Source: Malacoraja senta
Lineage: Eukaryota
Length of the DNA: 64,000 bases
Direction of reading: 5' to 3'
NCBI GenBank assembly: GCA_038087875.1
Contig: CM075996.1
Coordinates: 4,342,001 to 4,406,000 of the forward strand
Numbering within the stretch: the first letter of the stretch is position 1; the number at the start of each line of letters is the position of its first letter. Below are positions 510-56,065 of the stretch, in pieces. The notes beneath the pieces were generated by a model. It did no database searches. It was not told where the DNA came from and saw only the letters and a list, made by a program, of their open reading frames with translations. The translations under genes and the position numbers were made by a program.

Positions 510-1112
510 AACGATACGATAGGATAAATCTTTACTCATCGCCGGAGGGAATTTGGTCTGCCAACAGTCACAACACACAACAAGGTACACGAAAGCTTGA
601 AATTAAAATTAAATTAAGAGTGAGGGAGAAAAAAAGAAAAAGACAAGCGACTGTTGGCTGGTTGCGTGTGTACGGCGCCTTCACCAAAACAAACAAACAA
701 ACAAATGCAGGCTTATCCCCAGGGCAGAGGATTGTAAAGCTAGAGTGCCCCCCCCCACCCCCAGCCCCACACCGGGCCCCCCTTTGTTCACCCACCGTCC
801 CTCATGGCGGTCCCCCCATGCCGTGTCCTCCATTATTCTTCACAGCGGTCCCGCCACGCCCCATTGTCATTCCCTCCTCCCCTCACACTCATCAACCGTC
901 GATCACGAGGCCCCACCACCGTCGAGGTTCTCGTTGCCGCCGAAGCTCACACTGCCGCCGAGGTCCCACCACTGCCTACGTCGAGGCTCCCATCGCTGCA
1001 GCCGCTGAAGCTCCTTTGGCCCAGACAGGCCTCGCTGCCCAGCTTCTCCGCAGTCCCCTGGGAGGCCTGTTGGGCGAGTCGCAGGCAGCGCAGTAGTTCC
1101 CCGGGACACTCA
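510..1112 (-). mobile_element. GC-rich interspersed repeat, unclassified, probably a non-autonomous retroposon
   Basis: CpG-rich block in an AT-rich intron with a short simple-repeat tail near 510-530; layout resembles 53350-54185. The overlapping ORFs are low-complexity. Confidence 0.35.
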
Positions 1113-1394
1113 CGCTAGACACAAAATGCTTGAATAATCGCTGAGTTACTCCAGTCTATATATATGCCTCTACTCACTTAATCTGCCATTACTGCCCCAC
1201 AACATGGCACAACATCTTTCACTGCCTCAAACTGTGCTGAAATAATAGTCATACACACAGAAACAGGCCCTTTAACCTATCTGAGTGCCCATAACATGTC
1301 ACAGCTTTATAACATCCCAGAGGCAGTACCTAGGTTTATCAGTGAAACCCTTGAGGTAAGATGTAGAAGCAAAGAACTGCAGAAGATGGATTAT

Positions 1395-1577
1395 ACACAA
1401 GACAGACACAAAGTGCTGGAGTAACTCAGCATGTCAGGTAGCATCTCTGGAGAAAAACGCTGCATGATGTTTCGGGTCGGGGCCCTTCTTCAGTCTGAAG
1501 AAGGATCCTGACCCAAAACTTCACCCATCCTTTTACTCCTGACCCGCTGAGTTACTCCAGCAATTTGTGTCTATCTA
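1395..1577. mobile_element. Inverted (head-to-head) pair of Penelope-derived terminal repeats
   Basis: Near-palindrome centred on CTTCTTCAGTCTGAAGAAG (~1485-1503), with arms GACACAAAGTGCTGGAGTAACTCAGC and GCTGAGTTACTCCAGCAATTTGTGTC. Confidence 0.7.
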
Positions 1578-1821
1578 TGAGATAACGCTCCGGTTTTGGT
1601 CCATCACTTTGTTAACAGGAAGGAACGTTTAAGCTATATTGACTAGGAACTAGATGGTCTCTTTCCAACAGACAGAAGCTTCTTGGACACGATGACTGAC
1701 ACACTAATCCCACTTTTCCTCTCGTGTCTCCGTCAACTCCAATCTTGGGGCAGTTTAGTGACCAGTTAATCTACCGACCAGTTTGTCTTTGGGCCGTGTG
1801 AGGAAACTGGAGCAGCTGGGT

Positions 1822-1857
<36 letters not shown>

Positions 1858-2001
1858 TTGCTGTCACAGGGAGAACATGCAAACATCACAGACAGCACCA
1901 AAGGTTCGGACAACATTTGGAGTTGCTGCCTGATATTACTGCCACAGGAGGCAAAACTTCCAATAGAAATGTAGCAAAAAATTTCAAAGCAGTGTACTTA
2001 C

Positions 2002-2515
2002 ATAGGCTTCATTGCTCGAATGCATAGAACATAAATTCTTAAGATCACGAAGGCGCTTTTCAAGATGAGAGGATATTCCTGTTGGCAACTGGTGGGACAT
2101 CTGCTTTTGGCTCAGGGTGGGCAAGATGCAGCTTGAAGACACCACAGTGTTGCTGCTCTCCTCGGGTTCAGAAGCCGGGCTTCCACTGGGTGTCTCCGCC
2201 AGCAGCTTCTCGATGTCCAAATCCCCGAGCAACTCCATGGCGTTGGCAGCTTCCTGAAGCAAGTCGTTCTCGTTGGAACTCCCCAGAATTGAAAAGACTT
2301 GATCGGAGGCAGTGAGGTTGTACTCGGAAAGGCCAGGGTTCTTTGTCGCCGGATCGGTCGTCTGGGAGGCGGGCAGTTGTTTCACGCCGGTCTCCTGCTT
2401 CTTCATGGCTTCTTTCTCCTTTTGGAACTTTTTGAGCATCTCGGCCAGAGAAAGCGTGTCGTTGTGGTTTTTCCGCTTCTTCTTCTGATGTTTGACCGCA
2501 TTGAGGGCCACCACT
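2002..2515 (-). CDS. UBN2: Ubinuclein-2 coding exon 6
   Basis: Acceptor ttcag at 2516-2517; encodes (G)VVALNAVKHQKKKRKNHNDTLSLAEMLKKFQKEK...LEKRLRDLKN, matching recalled human GVVALNSHKSEKKKKRYKDSLSLAAMIRKFQKEK...LEKRIEDLRV. First in-frame donor GTAAGT at 2001-1996; the 3' boundary is less certain (see findings). Confidence 0.88.
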
Positions 2516-2606
2516 CTGAAAGACAACCACAGCAGCAGTTACAACAGTGCACTGACAATCCAAGAGTCAAGAGTGTTTTATTGTCATATGTCCAAGATAT
2601 TATAAT

Positions 2607-2886
2607 GTCAGGGCGGGGAGAGTCCCCCTCCCCCGACACGGGTACCATGTAATCCCGTGCTACCTGCTCCATGGTCGGATAGTCGGCGACTAAACCGTCT
2701 CCCACACCTGGTTTGCCAGGTGAAGAGGGGGCTGTGGACCCCCAGCAGGACCAAAAACAAGACCTGTCAAAGGGCGGATGAGTTTCTAGCGACCCAATGC
2801 CCATCCATAGTAGAAGTTGCGATCACTGTCGTACACAGCATTGTAAGGCACCATGCCCGTTGATGTTTTCAACGATGATGATGATA
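2607..2886 (+). mobile_element. Structured SINE-like retroposon with (GAT)n tail, copy 1 (internally deleted)
   Basis: Near-identical to 8101-8320; ends TGTTTTCAACGATGATGATGAT; inserted into another repeat. Confidence 0.7.
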
Positions 2887-3469
2887 AAACAATGAAATTC
2901 GTACTTGCAGCAGCACAACAGAATATCTAAACATAGCACACTGCAAACAATATAATAAACGAGAGAAAGAAAATCCACGTTTATAAAAGTCCAATTTATA
3001 CTGCAACTTGAGAATTTGAATTCAGCCAAACAAAAACAGAAAATAAAAAGTTAATATCAATCATCGTGTCCACAAAGCTGGCAGTTGTCATAAAGAGTCC
3101 ATCCAGTTCCCTGCCAAGTTGACTTAAACTTTCCTTCCTGTTAGCAAAGTTTCAATCAAAACTGGAACCATATCTCAGCGGTTCACTGATAAAATGATGT
3201 CTCATCTATGGGATGTTGTCAGGTATCTCCAATTCTGTAAAACATCCCACAGCCCTCAGAATGAGTAACGTCAGACAAAATATGACATCGAGCTACCAGA
3301 GGGATTATTATGACAATTTGGTCAGAGTGTTGTACAAGCCTCTCAGAATATAATTTGCAGTCTTATGGCTTCTTTAGTTTGGTTCATCATTCATTTCCAT
3401 TGTCGATGATCTACATTAATGTCACTTTCACGACCAGCCCTTAGAATCAGAGTGTTACAGAGCTTATAG

Positions 3470-3755
3470 AGATTGATTGAATGAAAGATACAGCATGGAA
3501 ATAGGCCCTTCGGCCCTCCAGGTCCGCACTGACCATTGATCACCCATTCACACTGTGTTACCCCACTTTTTGCATCCACTCCCTACACATTAGGGGCAAT
3601 TTACAGAGGCCAATTAACCCACAAAGCTGCATGTCTTTGGGATGTGTGAGGAAACCGAAGCATTTCAGAGGAAACCCACTCAGTCACAGCAAACTGCGCA
3701 CACAGATAGCACCCGAGGTCAGGATCGAACCTGGGTCTCTGCCACTGTGAGGTAC
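3470..3755 (-). mobile_element. tRNA-derived V-SINE (HE1-like), degraded
   Basis: Minus strand reads ...GACCCAGGTTCGATCCTGACCTCGGGTGCT... and ends in a CR1-like tail GGCCGAAGGGCCTATTTCCATGCTGTATC with (ATCA)n. Confidence 0.7.
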
Positions 3756-4417
3756 TGGAGATGACAGAGATCGGGAGGGTGGGAGGATGGAAGGATGTAA
3801 ATTTGAGAATTTTTAATTTGCTGGGCTGGGAACCAATGTAGATCAGAATGAAGAAGGGTGTTGAAAAAGTGAACGGGACAAGGCAGCAGTGTTCTAAATG
3901 TTTTCATGCAAGCTAATAGGTGAGAGGACAAAACTGTCATGGAATAGCAAAACACATAGCAGCGTAACCAAATTAAACCGTGACTGATCTAAAGCCTCCA
4001 TTAGAAGACGAACCATCAAGCAGAATCTAAAGTTTCGGACAACATGCAGAGGAAACCCCATACATTTGTTTAAAGAGATCTGATGAGCACAGGAAAAAAG
4101 TCTGAAATGGGAAAAGACTAACACCCCCTCCCTCCACATTAACATCAATACCTTTTCAATCAATCAATCAATCAGTTTTATTCGTCACTTGCACATAAAG
4201 TGCAAGTGAAATGAATTTGCCAGCAGCGGTACAATGAAAAAAGAACACACAAAAACACAATAAAAATGTAACACAAACATCCACCACAGCATTCATCACT
4301 GTGGTGGAAGGCACAGAATTTGGCCAGTCCTCCTCCATTTCCCCCGTGGTCAGGACCTCAACCTATTTTCACAGTTTAAAAAAAATATTGCAGTCTCAGC
4401 ATTTCAATACCACTCAC

Positions 4418-4530
4418 CCTGACTCGTTGGGAACCTTTAGCTTCCTTGGTTTCTTCTCTTTCATCCCTCCTTCATCCTTCCTTCTTTGTTTTTTCACCAC
4501 CCTGTCTTCGCCATCTCTTAACTTTTGTTT
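4418..4530 (-). CDS. UBN2: Ubinuclein-2 coding exon 5
   Basis: AG/GTGAGT flanks, 113 nt, phase 0 to 2; KQKLRDGEDRVVKKQRRKDEGGMKEKKPRKLKVPNES(G), similar to recalled human KKRKRKEEGEKEKKPRKKVPKQLG. A second in-frame AG lies 9 nt downstream. Confidence 0.85.
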
Positions 4531-5204
4531 CTTTAAAAAAACCACACACACCAACTTTTCTGCTTATTATTAAGTATATAAGAGCGCAGGAGCTTGAAAG
4601 CAACCAATTAAGTCCTTCCCAAGACCACGCAAAAGTTGAACGTGGAGATTTGTCATTATGCCGTTGAAAGACTTTTGCAAAAATAAATTGAAGACGAGGC
4701 AATTGTATGAACATCTCAGGACATCATTTGGAAATGATAAAATAACAAGCTTAACAAAGAGGCAGAGATAGAAGACTTACACTTGGATGAATGAAGGGAA
4801 AGTTTGAAGACAACTTTATTAATGGGAGATATTAGAATTTGGAATGTTTTACAAATTGGCAGCTAATTAAGCTGAAATTAGATCACTTGAAATGAATATA
4901 TATTTGAAACACATAAAATGACATGGTTAAAGGAAAAAAATGGGGCTGAAGTGCTCACTCCAAATGACAAACAATTAAAAAACAGGAGTCATTATGCCCA
5001 ACAGATGGAATAAGTCAATTTTATTGCACAACAACTCGCACCACAGACCACGTGTCAGGCCAGAGCTCCGGGTATACAAGCTCATTCTGCAAAGGAGATC
5101 AGCATTGTAAACGTTAAACGTCCAGCTCTTAGTCACCAATCCAACTGCAGCAACAAGTCCTTGTAATGGGACAAAAAGTTCGCCCTCACTCATTTGCCAC
5201 GGCC

Positions 5205-5490
5205 TGGTTAGGGTGAATGTGGAGAGGATGTTTCCACTAGTGGGAGAGTCTAGGACCAGAGGTTGTGGCCTGAGAATAAAAGCACGTACTTTTAGAAAGG
5301 AGACGAGGAGAAATGTATTTAATCAGTGGGTGGTGAGTCTGTGGAATTCATTGCCACCGAAGGCTGTGGAGGCTGTCAATGGGAGAGATTGACAGATTCT
5401 TGATTAGTATCAGGGGTTGAGAATGAAAGATAGATAGACTTGATGTGCCGAATGGCCTATTTCAGCTCCTTGGACTTATGACCTTATGAA
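5205..5490 (+). mobile_element. CR1 (HER1-like) LINE 3' fragment
   Basis: Encodes the CR1 ORF2 C-terminal motif VERMFPLVGESRTRG...RVVSLWNSLP and has a simple-repeat tail. Confidence 0.75.
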
Positions 5491-5606
5491 GTGTTTGACA
5501 GCGGTGTGGGGCACTCCGTGGAGGTGACAAGAGAAGAAAACATTCAGGATTAAAATGATAAAAATCTGATTTAAATCGCAGAATTTTAAACCAAACCGTT
5601 ACTCAC

Positions 5607-5744
5607 TTTAGGAGATTTCAATCTTTTCTTCCCTACTACATCTTCGTCTTCAGTGTCTGAAGTCTGCCGGAACTGCAACGTTCCTGTGTTTATGTAAAAT
5701 CCTCCATATTTTGTTGACAACGAGGCTGGAACCAACTCATCATA
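5607..5744 (-). CDS. UBN2: Ubinuclein-2 coding exon 4 (HRD/HUN domain, C-terminal half)
   Basis: 138 nt, [54 protein letters not shown]. Confidence 0.95.
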
Positions 5745-5894
5745 CTGAAAAATAAAAGTAATGTTTCAGCCGGACCCTTTGGTAGTTCTAGCCGTGCAAG
5801 CTGGAATTTTGAGTCTCAGTTAAGCAGACCGGCGTACAAAGCTGAATGGGTTGCGGATGCCCAGTCTAAATTGTCTCTCGCTTGGCATCAGCAA

Positions 5895-6420
5895 GTTCAA
5901 AAGTAATAGGAGTAGAATTAGGCCATTTGGCTCATAGAGTCCACTCCGCCATTCAATCATGGCTGATCGCTGTCTCCTAATCCCATTTTCCTGCCTTCTC
6001 CCCATAACCCTTGACACCCGTTCTAATCAAGAATTTGTCTATCTCTTTCTTAAAAATATCCACTGATTTGGCCTCCACAGCCAATGAGTTCCACAGATTA
6101 ACTACCCTCTGACTCAAGAAGTTCCTCCTCACCTCCTTTCTAAAAGAGCACTCTTTAATTCTGAGGCTACATCTGGTCCTAGACTCTCCCACCAGTGGAA
6201 ACATCCTTTCCACATCCACTCTATCTATGCCTTTCATTATTCTGCAAGTTTCAATGAGGTTCCCCCCTCAACCTTCTAAACTCCAGCGAGTAGAGGCCCA
6301 GTGCTGTCAACCGCTCATCATACGCCAACCCACTCATTCCTGGAATTGTTCTTGTAAACCTCCTCTGGACCCTCTCCAGAGCCAGCACATCCTTCCTCAG
6401 ATATGGGGCACAAATGCTTA
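5895..6420 (-). mobile_element. CR1 (HER1-like) LINE 3' fragment
   Basis: ORFs 6251-6493 and 5977-6237 give APYLRKDVLALERVQRRFTR...YSLEFRRLRG and ESRTR...QRVVNLWNSL, the CR1 ORF2 C-terminus, frameshifted. Confidence 0.88.
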
Positions 6421-7139
6421 CTCTGCAACTATGTTTTGGGACTTGTCTGCGCCAATCAAAGGTTGCTTGTGCATTTCTTTCCACATTTCCCATGCAGAAT
6501 TAATCACCTCTTGTCATGACCATCATACTTTGAAGTCACGCAATTTGAAGTCTGATGAAGGGTCTCGACCTATTCCTTTTTTCCAGGGATGCTGCCTGAC
6601 CCGCTGAGTAACCCCAGCCTTTTGTGTCTATCTTCGGTGTAAACCAGCATCTGCAGTTCCTTCTCATACACTTTGAAGTCAGGTCTTTCCATCACAATTT
6701 CTTACAGTTTATTAGAAGCTATGATTATAGTAAAATCCAGGTCAAATTGCTTGACTAAAATTAACCCTGGCCCAGTTATTCACCACCTTCCTACCTACAC
6801 GTCCAAAGATCCTTTCCTTCGAACCATACAACAAAGATGACCATTCTGACAATTCATGCCAGTGATGTAACTGAACTGGAATAAACTAGTGGGAGACACA
6901 GCTAGTTCTGGACCACCTCAACAGCATTGTAGGTCAGGATGCCATCAGGACTCATAACTTTTCCTGTGCACAGTTCACTCGGTTCTTCCTTCATATCACA
7001 TGAAATAAACTGAATTATTTTGACGACCTTCTTTGATATGGGGAAGTTTGTTACTAATAGTTCAGCTATAACCACACTTATTACAATTGGTGCAGCGACT
7101 GAACAATGCAGAGAGGCCCCACACAAACATGAAATGAAT

Positions 7140-7470
7140 ATCATAAGGTCATAGGAGTAATAGGAGTAGAATTAAGCCATTCGGCCCATCAAGGCTACTA
7201 CGCCATTCAATTATGGCTGATCTATCTCTCCCTCCTAACCCCATTCTCCTGCCTTCTCCCCATTACCCCTGACGCCTGTACTAATCAAGAATCTATCTAT
7301 CACTGCCTTAAAAGTAACCACTGGCTTGGCCTCCACAGCCTATGGCAAAGAATTCCACAGAATCACCACCCTCTGACTGAAGAAATTCCTCATCTCCTTC
7401 CTAAAGGAAAGTCCTTGAATTCTGAGGCTGTGACCTCTGGTCCTGGACTCTCAACCTCGTGTAAACATCC
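7140..7470 (-). mobile_element. CR1 LINE 3' fragment
   Basis: Same 3' UTR and tail as 5895-6420. Confidence 0.75.
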
Positions 7471-16520: not shown

Positions 16521-16710
16521 GTCGGGCCAGGCTGGGGTGACAGCAAAGGCTCCTCTAGTATCTTTGGTCGACAATGCCATCAATGGAGGCCTGGGAGATG
16601 AATCAATGACAGTCTGGTGACTGGAGCAGCAATTGTCCCCACGCAGCCGGGCAGGGGGGAGGGGGGGGGGGGAGAGATGCACGGAGCTGCCCCGCGGAGC
16701 TCACTCCTAC

Positions 16711-16929
16711 CTTGACCTCCCGCAGCAGCTCGTTGTAGTTGTACTCGGTGTGGCTGCGGTCACTGGGCTCGCTCAGCTTCAGGCCGAAGCGCACGTTGCC
16801 CTGGTCGCCCCGCTCCTCTCGCCGCTTCTTCTTGGGGGCGGCGGCGGCGGCGGCGGCGGCGGGAGGCGCGGGCAGGGCGTCGGGAGGAGCGCTCACGGTG
16901 TTGAAGGCCACCCTCCGGGGTTCTGCCAT
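16711..16929 (-). CDS. UBN2: Ubinuclein-2 coding exon 1
   Basis: ATG at 16929 (gacATGG) in a CpG island; MAEPRRVAFNTVS...VRFGLKLSEPSDRSHTEYNYNELLREVK then donor GTAGGA. Human UBN2 begins MAEPRRVAF (recalled). 219 nt, phase 0. Confidence 0.93.
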
Positions 16930-22685: not shown

Positions 22686-22941
22686 CTGGAAAACAAGCAT
22701 CACAGGGAGAATGTACAAACTCCACACAGAATCCGCTGTGGTGGATACTTATGTTAACTCTTATGTATTTGTGTGTCTTGCTGCTTTTTTTTAATGGCTG
22801 TATGGTAATTCGCATAATACTGTACCTTAATTGGTACGTGACAATAAAAAAACCTTTGATAGGCACAAAAAGCTGGAGTAACTCAGCGGGTCAGACAACA
22901 TCTCTGGAGAAAAGGAATAGGTGACGTTTCAGGTCAAGACC

Positions 22942-22995
22942 GGGGTGGGAGATTGCAACCTTCACGTGGTCCGCCCTGTTTCGACGAATGCAATC
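22942..22995 (+). ncRNA. Predicted minimal HDV/CPEB3-like self-cleaving ribozyme
   Basis: P1 GGGGUGG/CCGCCCU with G1-U wobble, P2 GAUUGCA/UGCAAUC, P3 ACC/GGU, L3 UUCACGU, minimal P4 U-UUCG-A, J4/2 CGAA with the catalytic C at 22985. Folded by eye; activity not tested. Confidence 0.85.
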
Positions 22996-23080
22996 AACCC
23001 GGCGTGCACAATCAAATAAGATCAAATAGAACAAGTTGTCGTACAACTTTAGGCTGTGCACGCCATACGCAAGAAGAAGA
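22942..23080 (+). mobile_element. Short retroposon headed by an HDV-like ribozyme, copy 1
   Basis: 11-bp TSD AGGTCAAGACC at 22931-22941 and 23081-23091; (AAG)n tail; second copy at 55531-55673. Confidence 0.88.
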
Positions 23081-23093
23081 AGGTCAAGACCCT

Positions 23094-23400
23094 TAGTTTA
23101 GTTTTGAGATGCAGCACGGAAACAGGCCCTTCAGCCCACCGGGTGCGCCCCGACCAGCGATCCCCGCGCATTAACACTATCCTACAGCCACTAGGGACAA
23201 TTTTTACATTTACCAAGCCAATTACCTGTACGTCTTTAGAGTATGGGAGGAAACTGAAGATCACGGAGAAAACCCACGCAGGTCACGGGGAGAAAATACA
23301 AACTCCGTACAGACAGCACCCGTAGTCGGGATCGAACCCGGGTCTCCGGCGCTGCATTCGCTGTAAGGCAGCAACTCTACTGCTCTGCCACCGTGACCGT
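23094..23400 (-). mobile_element. Full-length tRNA-derived V-SINE (HE1-like)
   Basis: Pol III A box (GGTGGCAGAGCAGTAG) and B box (GGTTCGATCCC) on the minus strand, conserved core GGTGCTGTCTGTACGGAGTTTG, CR1-like tail. Confidence 0.85.
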
Positions 23401-48224: not shown

Positions 48225-49028
48225 AAGTTCAAGTGAGTTTATTGTCATGTGTCCCTGATAGGACAATGAAATTCTTGCTTTGCTTCAGCACAACAGAACA
48301 TAGTAGGCATTGATTACAAAACAGATCAGTGTGTCCATATACCATTCTATAAATATATACACACATGAATCAATATACTGATAAAGTGCAAATAACAGTT
48401 AATTGGCTATTAAAGTTCAGTGTTTTGTCCGAGCCAGGTTGAATAGCCTGATGGCTGTGGGGAAGTAGCTATTCCTGAACCTGGTCGTTGCAGTCTTCAG
48501 GCTCCTGTACCTTCTACCTGAAGGTAGTAGGGAGATGAGTGTGTGGCCAGGATGGTGTCCTTGATGATACTGCCAGCCTTTTTGAGGCAGCGACTGTGAT
48601 AGATCCCCTCGATGGAAGGGAGGTCAGAGCCGATGATGGACTGGGCAGTGTTTACTACTTTTTGTAGTCTTTTCCTCTCCAGGGCGCTCGTTGCCGAACC
48701 AAGCCATGATGCAACCGGTCAGCATGCTCTCTCCTGTGCACCTGTAGAAGTTAGAGAGAGTCCTCCTTGACAAACCGACTCTCCGTAATCTTCTCAGGAA
48801 GTAGAGGCGCTGATGTGCTTTCTTAATAATGGCATCAGTGTTCTCGGACCAGGAAAGATCTTCAGAGATGTGCATGCCCAGGAATTTGAAGCTCTTGACC
48901 CTTTCAACCATCGACCCGTTGATATAAACGGGACTGTGGGTCCCCATCCTACTCCTTCCAAAGTCCACAATCAGTTCCTTGGTTTTGCTGGTGTTGAGGG
49001 CCAGGTTATTGTGCTGGCACCATATGGA
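48225..49028 (-). mobile_element. Rex1/Babar-like LINE 3' fragment
   Basis: ORF 48624-48968 VDF.R...H.P.YING..VERV.SFKFLG..IS.DLSW..NT..I.KKAHQRLYFLRRL...NFYRC..ES.LT.CI.AWFG, the RT C-terminal region, frameshifted. Confidence 0.88.
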
Positions 49029-49775
49029 CAGTTGCTCTCGGATGAATGTAAAATCAAAATCTGTTTTACTATTTTAGAAGAGAAATAGAATTATCTCTAG
49101 TCTCTTGGCCACCATTTAAATCTCAATCAGCATTACTAAAAGCAAATTATCTGGTAGTTGTCAAATTGCTGGGTGTGGAGTTCTGTTAATGAGATAATTG
49201 CAGCACTTCCAACATTACAACAGTGGTTCTGCTTCAAATGATGCCCTTGCTTCATGAATACCTTGAAGTTAATACATTTTCCTTTAAACTTGCTTTTATA
49301 AAAACCCAGCCATTTCTTACTATGTACAATAAGTATCCACAATAATGAGTACATGCGAAGACTCAGGAAAATGGGGACCACTTCCCATCTCAGAAGGTTC
49401 CTCTCAATGAAGGCAGATATGATCAATAAAAAAGCCTTGCCTTCAGCGTGCCAGCACAGTCTTTGGCCACTTGTGGAAAAATGTGATTAAAGCTCAAGAG
49501 CTCAAACCCAGCATTAGCTTTGTATTGTCAAAAAAAAAAGACCATCTCCGCTAAAATGGAGTTATCAGCCAAATTAGCAGCACTGCATTCCATACCCTTC
49601 GAAAACAAGATTCGAACGCACTCTCCCAGAGATGACCTTGCACCTGTAGACGATGCCTGGGAGCGTAGCTTTTCTCAGGCCATTCAATGGGAAAGCGTGG
49701 CGTTGGTGGGCAAAACACAACAGCAATAGTTAGGTAGACCACCTGCATCCTCTGCAACTGGTAGTGCAGAAAAGT

Positions 49776-50091: not shown

Positions 50092-50656
50092 AGCTTATTG
50101 TCTGCCATGCTACGATGATCTCTGCCCTTACGTGTGCTTCTGTCATGCACAACCATAAACAGGCACCTCAAAGCACTTCTTCTTATTGAGTCCACACACA
50201 AGATTAGAAGTTGTTCAGCCAGAGCTGAACACACTTCTCGGCATCTGCATACAATGGTGTCTGTCTTGCGCTTCTTGTGCGTGGTGGTGGAAAGATTGGT
50301 GGAAACAGGGCTGCGACGTGAACGCTCTTTCCTTGACCCCTTCAAAGCATTAGAGGGATACTACTAAATCCATTGGCAAGCTAACAAATCATTGTTAACA
50401 TTTTGTCCCAGGCTAACATACCTCAATATTGAAGTAATAGTTACACTCAATTGGCTCCAAATTGTTCCATGTTGTTTTCATGCTCGACTCTCCAAACGGA
50501 ATCATTTTATCATGATTTTATCATGGTGCAAAATTACAAGGTTAAAGGAAGAAAGCCTATCAGCTTCACACAAAAGAATCACACTTTGATTTGCTTATTA
50601 CCCAAGTCCCTAAGTATATATGTATTAGCTGCACAAATTATCTGATGTAGATTTAC

Positions 50657-55255: not shown

Positions 55256-56065
55256 AATAGACAATAGGTGCAGGTGTAGGCCATTCGGCCCTTCGAGAAA
55301 GCACCGCCATTCAATGTGATCATCCACAATCAGTACCCAGTTCCTGCCTTCTCCCCATATCCCTTGACTCCGCTTTCTTTAAGAGCTCTATCTAACTCTC
55401 TCTTGAGAGCATCCAGAGAACCGGCCTCCACCGCCCTCTGAGGCAGAGAATTCCACAGGCTCACAACTCTCTGTGTGAAAAAGCAGTTCCTCATCTCCGT
55501 TCTAAATGGCTTACCCCTTATTCCAAAACTTCTTCTTCTTGCATATGGCGTGCACAGCCTAAAGTTTTAGGACAACTTGTTCTATTTGATCTTATTTGAT
55601 TGTGCACGCCAGGTTGATTGCATTCGTCAAAACAGGGCGGAACACGTGAAGGTTGCAATCAATCTTCCATCCCATTCTAAAACTGTGGCCCCTGGTTCTG
55701 GACTCCCCCAACATCGGGAACATGTTTCCTGCCTCTAGCCTGTCCAAACCCTTAATAATTTTATATGTTTCAATAAGATTCCCTCTCATCCTAAATTCCA
55801 TGGTATACTAGCCCAGTCGCTCCATTCTATCAACATATGACAGTCCCGCCATCCCGGGAATTAACCTTGTGAACCTACGCTGCACTCCCTCAATAGCAAG
55901 AATGTCCTTCCTCAAATTTGGAGTCCAAAACTGCACACAATTCTCCAGGTGTGGTCTCACTAGGGCCCTGTACAACTGCAGAAGGGCCTCTTTGCTCCTA
56001 TACTCAACTCCTCTTGTTATGAAGGCCAACCTGCCATTCGCTTTCTTCACTGCCTGCTGTACCTA
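55256..56065 (-). mobile_element. CR1 (HER1-like) LINE 3' fragment, interrupted by the ribozyme retroposon
   Basis: ORFs 55808-56050 (LYRALVRPHLE.CVQFW.P.LRKDI.A.E.VQRRFTR) and 55592-55801. Confidence 0.9.
55531..55673 (-). mobile_element. Short retroposon headed by an HDV-like ribozyme, copy 2 (ribozyme 55673-55616, mutated)
   Basis: Reverse complement of 22942-23080 with few changes; TSD ATTC(C/T)AAAACT at 55520-55530 and 55674-55684. Confidence 0.88.

What the first reader, a model, noticed from the sequence alone, without database searches (positions are those of the whole stretch)
22942..23080. A ~140-bp retroposon made of a minimal HDV-like ribozyme, a stem-loop and an (AAG)n tail
Seen: the insert is bounded by an 11-bp TSD (AGGTCAAGACC). 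Its first 54 nt fit the whole HDV double-pseudoknot in the right order: P1 22942-22948/22971-22977 with a G1-U wobble, J1/2 GA, P2 22951-22957/22989-22995 (7 of 7 bp), P3 ACC/GGU, 7-nt L3 UUCACGU, G22978 available for a 1-bp P1.1, a vestigial P4 (U-UUCG-A) and J4/2 CGAA with the catalytic C at 22985. The predicted cleavage site, just 5' of G22942, is exactly the TSD/element junction. No tRNA, 5S or 7SL head or clear Pol III boxes are visible. Established: HDV-like ribozymes process the 5' ends of R2, RTE and L1Tc retrotransposons, and short non-autonomous derivatives are known (R2 SIDEs, trypanosomatid SIDERs). Inference: this is a promoter-less SINE-like element that cuts itself out of read-through transcripts and borrows a LINE enzyme, perhaps RTE-clade given the trinucleotide tail. 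I do not know of a description of it in cartilaginous fish, but cannot exclude one.
Basis: partly seen in the sequence, partly recalled or inferred. Interest (0 to 1): 0.92.

Follow-up and report, generated by a model that had tools for sequence, protein, structure and literature searches.

The report
Ribozyme-headed SINE of an RTE-like LINE
This 139-base insert is one of several thousand copies of a short mobile element whose first 54 bases form a stripped-down HDV/CPEB3-type self-cleaving ribozyme, and its full-size relatives in the same genome closely resemble the mammalian CPEB3 ribozyme.

Summary
Window 22942-23080 is a 139-bp retroposon with an 11-bp target-site duplication and an (AAG)n tail. 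One 21-mer of it occurs 2,709 times in this 1.94-Gb genome. Of the 30 best copies, 29 start at the same G, and 20 have an exact duplication ending at the base before it.

The first 54 nt fit an HDV-type double pseudoknot. A covariance model built only from other ribozyme lineages of this genome finds exactly 22942-22995 (24.9 bits, E 3.5e-5). Across 24 sequences, 18 of 25 base pairs change on both sides while the core bases stay fixed.

The same ribozyme type, with a full P4, heads a 3.1-kb LINE that is RTE-like by architecture: one endonuclease plus reverse-transcriptase ORF, an (AAG)n tail and an 11-bp duplication. These heads score up to 64 bits on Rfam's mammalian CPEB3 model (cut-off 35).

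In two single-cell RNA runs, about 1,000 reads each join a 30-nt adaptor-like sequence directly to G22942. Sense RNAs therefore begin there.

Self-cleavage itself is untested. A start of transcription at G1 is not excluded. No LINE sharing the element's 3' sequence was found.

This is a new variant of a known kind. The CPEB3 link is the most interesting lead.

The parts
22931..22941 (+). 5' copy of the target-site duplication AGGTCAAGACC
   Evidence: identical 11-mer at 23081-23091
22942..22995 (+). Minimal HDV/CPEB3-type ribozyme. P1 22942-48/22971-77, J1/2 22949-50, P2 22951-57/22989-95, P3 22958-60/22968-70, L3 22961-67, G22978, 6-nt P4 remnant 22979-84 (U22979-A22984 closing pair), J4/2 22985-88 with the putative catalytic C22985. 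Predicted cleavage is 5' of G22942.
   Evidence: RNA 5' ends at 22942
22996..23069 (+). 3' domain: outer stem 23001-23010/23055-23064 enclosing hairpin 23033-39/23043-49. Presumed recognition site for the reverse transcriptase.
   Evidence: -23 kcal/mol, z -4.86, 0 of 200 shuffles fold as well; coordinates
23070..23080 (+). C followed by the (AAG)n tail AAGAAGAAGA. Tail length varies between copies.
23081..23091 (+). 3' copy of the target-site duplication
55531..55673 (-). Second, older copy of the same family: 143 nt, 95% identical over bases 10-139, with a 4-nt GATT duplication in P2. Duplication AGTTTTAGAAT / AGTTTTGGAAT.
50177..50340 (-). Copy of a sister family C: 164 nt. Minimal ribozyme head at 50289-50340, tail ATAAGAAGAA, duplication TGCTTTGA.
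   Evidence: RF00622 27.6 bits, E 2.3e-5; 43.9 bits, E 5.1e-9

Best explanation
The element is a non-autonomous non-LTR retroposon, a SINE in the broad sense, whose head is a P4-less HDV/CPEB3-type self-cleaving ribozyme.

Proposed cycle:
1. Copies lying in transcribed DNA are read through by the host polymerase. This is shown.
2. The head folds into the double pseudoknot and cuts the chain just 5' of G22942. The RNA then starts at the element's first base and keeps its ribozyme. The fold is supported by comparison and the RNA 5' end at G1 is shown. Catalysis is inferred.
3. The 3' stem-loop and the (AAG)n tail are used by the reverse transcriptase of a LINE in the same genome that is RTE-like by architecture and carries the full-size version of this ribozyme and the same tail. 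This step is inferred.
4. Target-primed reverse transcription gives full-length copies with duplications of 6-13 bp abutting G1. This is shown.
For: Family and ends:
- 40 of 40 scored genomic matches are 96-100% identical and start at query base 1-4. Two other loci are 100% identical.
- 29 of 30 copies start GGGGTGG, and 20 of 30 have an exact 6-13 nt duplication ending at position -1.
- The head 21-mer occurs 2,709 times and the 3' 21-mer 3,184 times, so few copies are 5'-truncated.

Fold:
- In a 24-sequence alignment of seven lineages, 91.3% of 519 cells pair, against 38-47% when partners are slid by 1-3 columns.
- 18 of 25 pairs change on both sides: P2 6 of 7, P1 3 of 7, P3 2 of 3, P4 7 of 8. 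None of 500 shuffles reach the covariation score.
- T20, T21, C22, C24 and T26 of L3, the G and T after P1, and one A of J4/2 are invariant. The J4/2 C is at least 90% conserved.
- Family A and family C share the short P4 remnant, yet differ on both sides at 5 of 7 P2 pairs and 2 of 3 P3 pairs. This points to compensatory change after P4 was lost.
- Subfamily B has U5-A in place of U5-G in P1, and CTAA in place of CGAA in J4/2.

Membership:
- A model built without families A, B or C finds 22942-22995 end to end (24.9 bits, E 3.5e-5). It finds family C at 43.9 bits.

Partner LINE:
- Its heads score 59.7-64.2 bits on RF00622, cut-off 35.
- One copy runs from the ribozyme through an ORF of 940 aa, then a further 88 aa after a stop, to (AAG)4, with the duplication ACAGAACAAAA.
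- The ORF holds Exo_endo_phos and RVT_1 domains.

RNA:
- In single-cell runs X21 and X22, 1,134 and 963 reads carry loose letters just before 22942. Their consensus is one 30-nt adaptor-like sequence ending in GGG (agreement 0.71 and 0.69). I recall it as a template-switch oligo, which is added at RNA 5' ends.
- Depth on the + strand is 4-10 times that on the - strand.
- Among reads, differences of 10% or more inside the ribozyme occur only at 22949 (J1/2), 22973 (G>A, still pairs with U5), 22982 and 22983 (P4 remnant) and 22986 (second base of J4/2). None occur in the 5' strand of P1, P2, P3, L3, G22978, C22985 or A22987-88.
- Bulk runs X23 and X24 show 506 and 405 reads running from the element into varied upstream flanks, which shows co-transcription.
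Against: - No cleavage assay exists. A 5' end at G1 would also arise from transcription starting there.
- In the bulk oligo-dT libraries many reads cross the 5' junction uncut, and no pile-up of read starts at 22942 was reported (table 6: none). Those libraries look unstranded and would lose a 140-nt non-polyadenylated RNA, so this is inconclusive.
- Rfam does not call family A. The in-house model needed its filters switched off to report it.
- Nested folding energy of the 54-mer is no better than shuffles (z +0.92). Pseudoknots are not modelled by that tool.
- P4 is reduced to one possible pair.
- The one LINE 3' UTR I read shares only the tail with the element. Three 'not'-pattern searches found no LINE carrying the element's own ends.
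- Sequences in the alignment are related by descent, and the structure was read from them, so the shuffle control overstates significance. The slid control is the fairer one.
Confidence: 0.8

Rival explanations
1. The head is a ribozyme by descent but no longer cleaves, because loss of P4 killed it. The uniform 5' end is set by transcription starting at G1 from an internal Pol II or Pol III promoter. This would resemble the dual Pr77 promoter/ribozyme of L1Tc, but with the promoter doing the work.
For: Adaptor-joined 5' ends at G1 fit a transcription start as well as a cut. TTCGA at 22980-22984 weakly resembles the core of a B box; that resemblance is recalled, not tested. Sense-strand excess in the single-cell runs would also follow from autonomous transcription. 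Rfam scores for family A are below threshold.
Against: Families A and C share the P4 remnant, yet P2 and P3 differ by compensatory pairs, which is hard to explain without selection on the fold after P4 was lost. Family C has TTCCA where A has TTCGA, so no B-box-like core is shared. The 3.1-kb LINE starts at the same ribozyme base. Variation among expressed copies avoids all core positions. No tRNA, 5S or 7SL head is present.
Confidence: 0.13
2. Both mechanisms act, as in L1Tc/NARTc. The same 54 nt would serve as an internal promoter at the DNA level and as a ribozyme at the RNA level.
For: Strong sense-strand bias and abundant G1-ended RNA in the single-cell libraries. There is a precedent in the abstracts of PMC3383444 and PMC3185411, seen in the listing.
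Against: Bulk reads show that many copies are simply read through.
Confidence: 0.05
3. The HDV-like fit is a chance resemblance in an ordinary short retroposon.
For: Nested fold energy is not better than shuffles. Rfam gives E 1.7.
Against: An independent model gives E 3.5e-5 with end-to-end alignment. Covariation spans seven lineages. Homologous heads on a LINE exceed the Rfam cut-off by almost 30 bits.
Confidence: 0.01

Closest known systems
HDV-like ribozymes at the 5' ends of non-LTR retrotransposons (R2, R4, Baggins, RTE, L1Tc). Source: Ruminski et al. 2011, not held and recalled from its abstract; the review PMC6765202, passage read.
   Same: The ribozyme sits at the first base of the element and cleaves upstream of itself. 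It frees a promoter-less element from a co-transcript. The partner LINE here has RTE-like architecture.
   Different: Here the head is also on short non-coding elements present in thousands of copies in a vertebrate genome. On those it lacks P4. Its sequence is of the CPEB3 type.
R2 SIDEs, non-autonomous derivatives of R2 by internal deletion (PMC3414825; abstract seen in the listing)
   Same: Ribozyme head plus a 3' end used by the LINE enzyme, with no ORF.
   Different: SIDEs are specific to rDNA and share both ends with their R2 parent. This family inserts at varied sites. Apart from the ribozyme type, it shares only the (AAG)n tail with the LINE copy I read.
NARTc and SIDER elements of trypanosomatids with the Pr77/L1TcRz head (PMC3185411, PMC4035085; abstracts seen in the listing)
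   Same: Dispersed, high-copy short elements that carry the HDV-like ribozyme of their LINE.
   Different: A different LINE clade (ingi/L1Tc) in protists. That 77-nt head is also a proven promoter. No promoter is shown here.
Mammalian CPEB3 intronic ribozyme (Rfam RF00622)
   Same: LINE-type heads of this genome score 46-64 bits against a cut-off of 35. One lineage (R3) matches the model consensus through P1, P2, P3, L3, P4 and J4/2. The element under study shares L3, the G after P1 and the C.AA of J4/2 with the consensus printed.
   Different: CPEB3 is a single-copy intronic sequence, reported as not found outside mammals (PMC8233481, passage read). The sequences here are multi-copy heads of retroelements. 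Family A itself does not reach E 10 on RF00622.
Minimal, P4-less HDV-like ribozymes. The human-microbiome examples are recalled. Theta ribozymes of gut phages: PMC10879173, abstract seen in the listing.
   Same: An HDV-type core with P4 reduced or absent.
   Different: Those occur in bacteria and phages. This one is in a eukaryotic retroposon and clearly descends from a relative with a full P4 in the same genome.

Membership tests
HDV-like (HDV/CPEB3-type) self-cleaving ribozyme | Nested double pseudoknot with P1, P2 and P3 in the canonical order | tested here: met
   All pairs form in the window copy. Covariation: 11 of the 17 P1-P3 pairs change on both sides; 91.3% of cells pair against 38-47% when slid.
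HDV-like (HDV/CPEB3-type) self-cleaving ribozyme | P4 helix | tested here: not met
   Reduced to the 6-nt linker TTTCGA with one possible U-A pair. Relatives in the genome have 8-bp P4 helices. By recall, P4 is dispensable for catalysis in minimal HDV-like ribozymes.
HDV-like (HDV/CPEB3-type) self-cleaving ribozyme | G1-U wobble at the base of P1 with the cleavage site 5' of G1, and a conserved C in J4/2 | tested here: met
   G22942-U22977 and C22985 are present. G-U occurs in 14 of 21 sequences with letters at that pair; the other 7 do not pair there. The J4/2 C is at least 90% conserved and the following A bases are invariant or nearly so.
HDV-like (HDV/CPEB3-type) self-cleaving ribozyme | Score over a curated Rfam gathering threshold | tested here: not met
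   Family A scores 14.4 bits on RF02682 against a cut-off of 44, and gets no RF00622 hit at E<=10. Its relatives do pass: LINE heads 59.7-64.2 bits, and one family C copy 37.4 bits. An in-house model without family A gives 24.9 bits, E 3.5e-5.
HDV-like (HDV/CPEB3-type) self-cleaving ribozyme | Self-cleavage that leaves a 5'-OH product starting at G1 | tested here: inconclusive
   Sense RNA 5' ends at G22942 are seen as adaptor junctions: 1,134 and 963 reads, agreement about 0.7. The chemistry of the end, and catalysis, cannot be tested with these tools.
Classical SINE (head derived from tRNA, 5S or 7SL with a Pol III promoter) | Head homologous to a small Pol III RNA gene | tested here: not met
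   ARAGORN finds 0 genes. Rfam E-value scans give no tRNA, 5S or 7SL match.
LINE-derived non-autonomous retroposon (SIDE-like) | 5' end homologous to the partner LINE's 5' end | tested here: met
   The ribozyme head aligns with the LINE heads.
LINE-derived non-autonomous retroposon (SIDE-like) | 3' end homologous to the partner LINE's 3' UTR | tested here: not met
   Only the (AAG)n tail matches the one LINE copy read. 'Not'-pattern searches found no LINE with the element's 3' 20- or 21-mer. Each such search would miss a LINE with probability of about 0.6.
RTE clade (for the partner LINE) | Element of about 3.2 kb, one ORF with N-terminal AP endonuclease and reverse transcriptase, short-repeat tail | tested here: met
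   About 3.14 kb; ORF of 940 aa then a further 88 aa after a stop; Exo_endo_phos plus RVT_1; (AAG)4 tail. Relatives are 900-1,050 aa on contigs of 3.0-3.4 kb.
RTE clade (for the partner LINE) | Placement inside RTE in a reverse-transcriptase phylogeny | not tested
   No named reference sequences were available. The source names are uninformative.

The most novel reading that the evidence does not exclude
The mammalian CPEB3 intronic ribozyme is the domesticated head of a retroposon of this kind. A family of retroelements that are RTE-like by architecture, old among vertebrates, carries CPEB3-type ribozymes. One lineage in this genome (R3) matches the mammalian consensus helix by helix, including the P2 and P4 sequences. 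One such head, landing in a CPEB3 intron of an early mammal, would have been kept. The minimal SINE heads would then show that this ribozyme type works without P4 in a vertebrate cell.
Probability: 0.5. Interest if true: 0.87.

Novelty: new variant of a known kind. Interest (0 to 1): 0.78.

Why it matters
Ribozyme-terminated LINEs are known. A high-copy vertebrate SINE whose only head is a 54-nt, P4-less HDV-type ribozyme, with RNA 5' ends at the predicted cut, is a compact natural example. It shows how a promoter-less element can spread by riding host transcripts. It also supplies thousands of natural variants of a minimal ribozyme.

The wider value lies in the relatives. That would supply outgroups and a testable origin by exaptation of a transposon.

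Tried and rejected
1. Parent LINE by exact ends. I used 'not'-coded patterns downstream of the ribozyme (44 hits) and upstream of the 3' stem or the 3' terminus (36 and 56 hits). They gave only indel variants, subfamily B and single odd loci. No LINE emerged.

2. Locus L051/L061. It looked like the ribozyme followed by a LINE with ORF1 and ORF2. It is a truncated SINE copy next to another abundant repeat and an unrelated poly(A)-tailed LINE. Rejected.

3. A recurrent deletion variant lacking the 3' strand of P1. It might have tested whether the ribozyme is needed. All 15 loci fetched share the same flanks, so it is one old fragment carried inside another amplified repeat. Uninformative.

4. 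Rfam on the element alone. Nothing appeared in a 2-kb scan, and only E 1.7 in a 201-bp scan.

5. The in-house model with default filters did not report family A.

6. The look-up of sequencing runs: no RNA holder listed.

7. Bulk RNA-seq gave no pile-up of read starts at G1, with junction-crossing reads on both sides. It cannot separate cut from uncut sense transcripts.

8. Downstream DNA of lineages R3 and R4. Copies agree for only about 35 nt past the ribozyme, so their nature as LINE or SINE is unresolved.

9. The search of earlier findings by sequence found nothing.

10. Papers not held: Ruminski 2011 and Webb 2009. What I say of them is recalled.

11. The search was badly framed; its listing held no ribozyme paper.

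Full report
**What is at the site**

The 11-mer AGGTCAAGACC stands at 22931-22941 and again at 23081-23091. Between the two copies lie a 54-nt head, a 74-nt structured 3' domain and a tail AAGAAGAAGA. The insert sits inside another interspersed repeat. No call names the organism.

**It is a large, young retroposon family**

- In the window's own 1.94-Gb assembly, all 40 scored matches (of 156 first-look candidates) were 96-100% identical.
- 35 of the 40 covered bases 1-139, and all 40 began at query base 1-4. Two other loci were 100% identical.
- Among the 30 best loci, 29 begin GGGGTGG and one begins AGGGTGG.
- 20 of the 30 have an exact direct repeat of 6-13 nt whose upstream copy ends at the base before G1. 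By eye, most of the other 10 have a repeat with one mismatch. The AAG tail varies in length.
- A further 30 loci were chosen for odd internal sequence rather than for their ends. By eye they again mostly begin at the same G.
- The 21-mer spanning the end of the ribozyme occurs 2,709 times (control 0). The 21-mer at the 3' end occurs 3,184 times (control 0). Most copies are therefore full length, and no abundant LINE shares that 3' end.
- A second, older copy lies at window 55531-55673 on the minus strand, with its own duplication.
- Words of the element are held by 20 public runs from 11 studies under eight coded organism labels.

**The head belongs to an HDV/CPEB3-type ribozyme group**

Rfam alone is not decisive for this copy. 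The best match is RF02682 at 14.4 bits, E 1.7, although it is aligned over exactly 22942-22995.

The decisive evidence came from relatives.

*Family C.* A weak BLAST hit inside the window led to 50289-50340 on the minus strand. That stretch matches Rfam's CPEB3 ribozyme model RF00622 at 27.6 bits, E 2.3e-5. It is the head of a second retroposon family, C. The window copy is 164 nt, has the tail ATAAGAAGAA and has its own duplications. One search gave 1,365 first-look candidates; 40 were scored at 97-100% identity, and all began at query base 1 or 2.

*Whole-genome search.* Searching the genome with RF00622 gave 51 matches at E<=0.001 among 59 scored. 39 were over the 35-bit cut-off and the best scored 64.2 bits. 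The same search rang in 0 of 14 control genomes.

*Lineages.* The sequences I fetched fall into four lineages with a full P4, which I call R1-R4, plus family C.

*Covariation.* In a 24-sequence alignment of R1-R4, C, A and subfamily B, I counted the HDV-type structure:
- 91.3% of 519 cells pair, against 38-47% when partners are slid by 1-3 columns.
- 18 of 25 pairs change on both sides: P2 6 of 7, P1 3 of 7, P3 2 of 3, P4 7 of 8.
- None of 500 shuffles reach the covariation score.
- The sequences are related by descent and the structure was read from them, so the slid control is the fairer one.

*Conserved core.* Five of the seven L3 bases, the G and T after P1 and one A of J4/2 are invariant. 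The J4/2 C is at least 90% conserved. The base after it varies: G in family A, T in subfamily B and lineage R2, C in family C.

*Independent model.* A covariance model built only from the 15 R1-R4 sequences finds family C at 43.9 bits, E 5.1e-9. With its filters off, it finds exactly 22942-22995, end to end, at 24.9 bits, E 3.5e-5. The next hit scores 8.0 bits. With default filters family A was not reported.

*Nested folding.* This recovers P1 plus P3 for the 54-mer and P2 for the whole element. The energies are no better than shuffles, as expected for a pseudoknot the tool cannot model.

**The minimal form seems to have been kept under selection**

Families A and C share the same 6-nt remnant in place of P4: TTTCGA in A and TTTCCA in C, closed by a U-A pair where the long forms have C-G. 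Yet they differ on both sides at 5 of 7 P2 pairs and 2 of 3 P3 pairs.

Subfamily B is about 112 nt, has a different middle and has the same last 35 nt or so. It has U5-A in place of U5-G in P1, and CTAA in place of CGAA.

Among RNA reads, differences of 10% or more inside the ribozyme fall only at five positions:
- J1/2 (22949);
- the wobble partner 22973, where G>A still pairs;
- the P4 remnant (22982 and 22983);
- the variable J4/2 base (22986).

**The partner LINE**

The best RF00622 hits are the first bases of a longer repeat. I followed one copy from the ribozyme onward:
- a short leader;
- an ORF of 940 aa, then a further 88 aa after a stop;
- a 3' UTR ending in (AAG)4;
- ACAGAACAAAA on both sides, about 3.14 kb in all.

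The ORF has Exo_endo_phos and RVT_1 domains. Its relatives are 50-64% identical proteins of about 900-1,050 aa, mostly on contigs of 3.0-3.4 kb. The named ones come from amphioxus, sea urchin, insects, a lizard and a fish.

This is RTE-like architecture. I did not build a tree. The LINE's 3' UTR shares only the tail with families A and C. Mobilisation by this LINE is therefore inferred from four things: the shared ribozyme type, the tail unit, the length of the duplications and co-residence in the genome.

**RNA evidence (raw reads of one coded organism)**

*Single-cell libraries X21 and X22.* 2,706 and 2,494 reads were laid.
- 1,134 and 963 of them carry unmatched letters immediately before 22942.
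- Their consensus is a single 30-nt sequence ending in GGG, with agreement 0.71 and 0.69. I recognise it, by recall, as a template-switching oligo. Such oligos are added where reverse transcriptase reaches an RNA 5' end.
- The full oligo, its own GGG included, precedes all four G of the element. A strand-invasion artefact at the G run is therefore unlikely.
- Plus-strand depth is 4-10 times minus-strand depth.
- Poly(A) letters follow 23072 and 23065. This looks like oligo-dT priming on the A-rich tail.

*Bulk oligo-dT libraries X23 and X24.*
- 506 and 405 reads run from the element into varied upstream sequence.
- At least 717 and 817 reads run into varied downstream sequence.
- No pile-up of read starts was reported.

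Many copies are thus simply co-transcribed. These libraries cannot tell cut from uncut sense RNA.

Together the data show sense RNAs that begin at G1. They do not show the chemistry of that end.

**Comparison with what is known**

- HDV-like ribozymes at the 5' ends of R2, Baggins, RTE and L1Tc are established. [quoted passage not shown]
- R2 SIDEs and the trypanosomatid NARTc and SIDER elements are the nearest non-autonomous parallels (abstracts seen in the listing).
- This case differs in four ways. It has thousands of dispersed copies. Its P4 is reduced to a remnant. Its sequence is of the CPEB3 type.
- Seven searches of the held library found no description of such an element in cartilaginous fish, and none of CPEB3-type ribozymes in fish retroelements. 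Ruminski 2011 and Webb 2009 are not held. Repbase, Dfam and Rfam's own full hit lists could not be consulted.

**The CPEB3 lead**

Lineage R3 (L119, L121, L123) aligns with the RF00622 consensus through every helix, including the sequences of P2 and P4. The copies are visibly decayed yet still score 47.7-51.4 bits.

The simplest reading is that the mammalian ribozyme and these retroelement heads are homologous. That would make exaptation of a retroposon head a testable origin. I could not establish what R3 elements are. Copies agree for only about 35 nt past the ribozyme. One copy ends in A10 with an 8-nt duplication.

**Verdict**

The element is a ribozyme-headed, LINE-dependent retroposon: a new variant of a known kind. 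Catalysis by the minimal form is the main step still to be shown. I put 0.8 on the self-cleavage mechanism.

Noticed in passing
window 50177-50340 (-): Copy of a second ribozyme-headed retroposon family (C, 164 nt). Its head hits Rfam CPEB3_ribozyme at 27.6 bits. The genome gave 1,365 first-look candidates.
   Followed up: yes
L119, L121, L123, L128, L131 (lineage R3); L135-L137: Decayed ribozymes that follow the mammalian CPEB3 consensus helix by helix (47.7-51.4 bits for the three scanned). Copies agree for only about 35 nt downstream. One copy (L121+L135) ends in A10 with the duplication ATAGTTGT, as if a ribozyme-headed transcript had been retrocopied with a poly(A) tail.
   Followed up: partly
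L113, L117, L120 (R2); L122, L125, L130, L132 (R4): Two more ribozyme lineages with full P4 and compensatory P1, P2 and P3 changes. R2 has CTAA in J4/2. It is unknown whether they head LINEs or SINEs.
   Followed up: partly
whole genome: The core motif TTCACGT-N5-6-CCCTGT occurs 7,394 times against 93 for the reversed control. By eye, about three quarters of the first 100 listed are family A/B and about one quarter family C.
   Followed up: partly
L082-L096: A fragment of family A lacking the 3' half of the ribozyme is embedded, with identical flanks, in another repeat that has itself been amplified. All 15 loci fetched show this.
   Followed up: yes
L061 (contig C5), about 1088-7160: A poly(A)-tailed LINE with a 280-aa ORF1-like frame and a long ORF2 split by a stop. 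It lies next to a truncated family A copy and is unrelated to the finding.
   Followed up: partly
window 22700-22941 and 23092-23300: The element is inserted into another interspersed repeat. A different abundant repeat of about 260 bp turned up, with 2,639 first-look candidates.
   Followed up: no
window 23065 and 23072: Single-cell reads carry poly(A) directly after these positions (90-222 reads per run). This is probably oligo-dT priming on the AAG tail, but real polyadenylation is not excluded.
   Followed up: no
window 16650-16720 (-): Weak hit of the in-house ribozyme model (10.1 bits, E 2.2) whose P1 and P2 5' strands resemble the LINE-type head. It may be a decayed copy.
   Followed up: no
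window 48624-49073 (-): A 149-aa open frame that looks, by eye, like a reverse-transcriptase fragment of another LINE. It lies just downstream of the family C copy.
   Followed up: no
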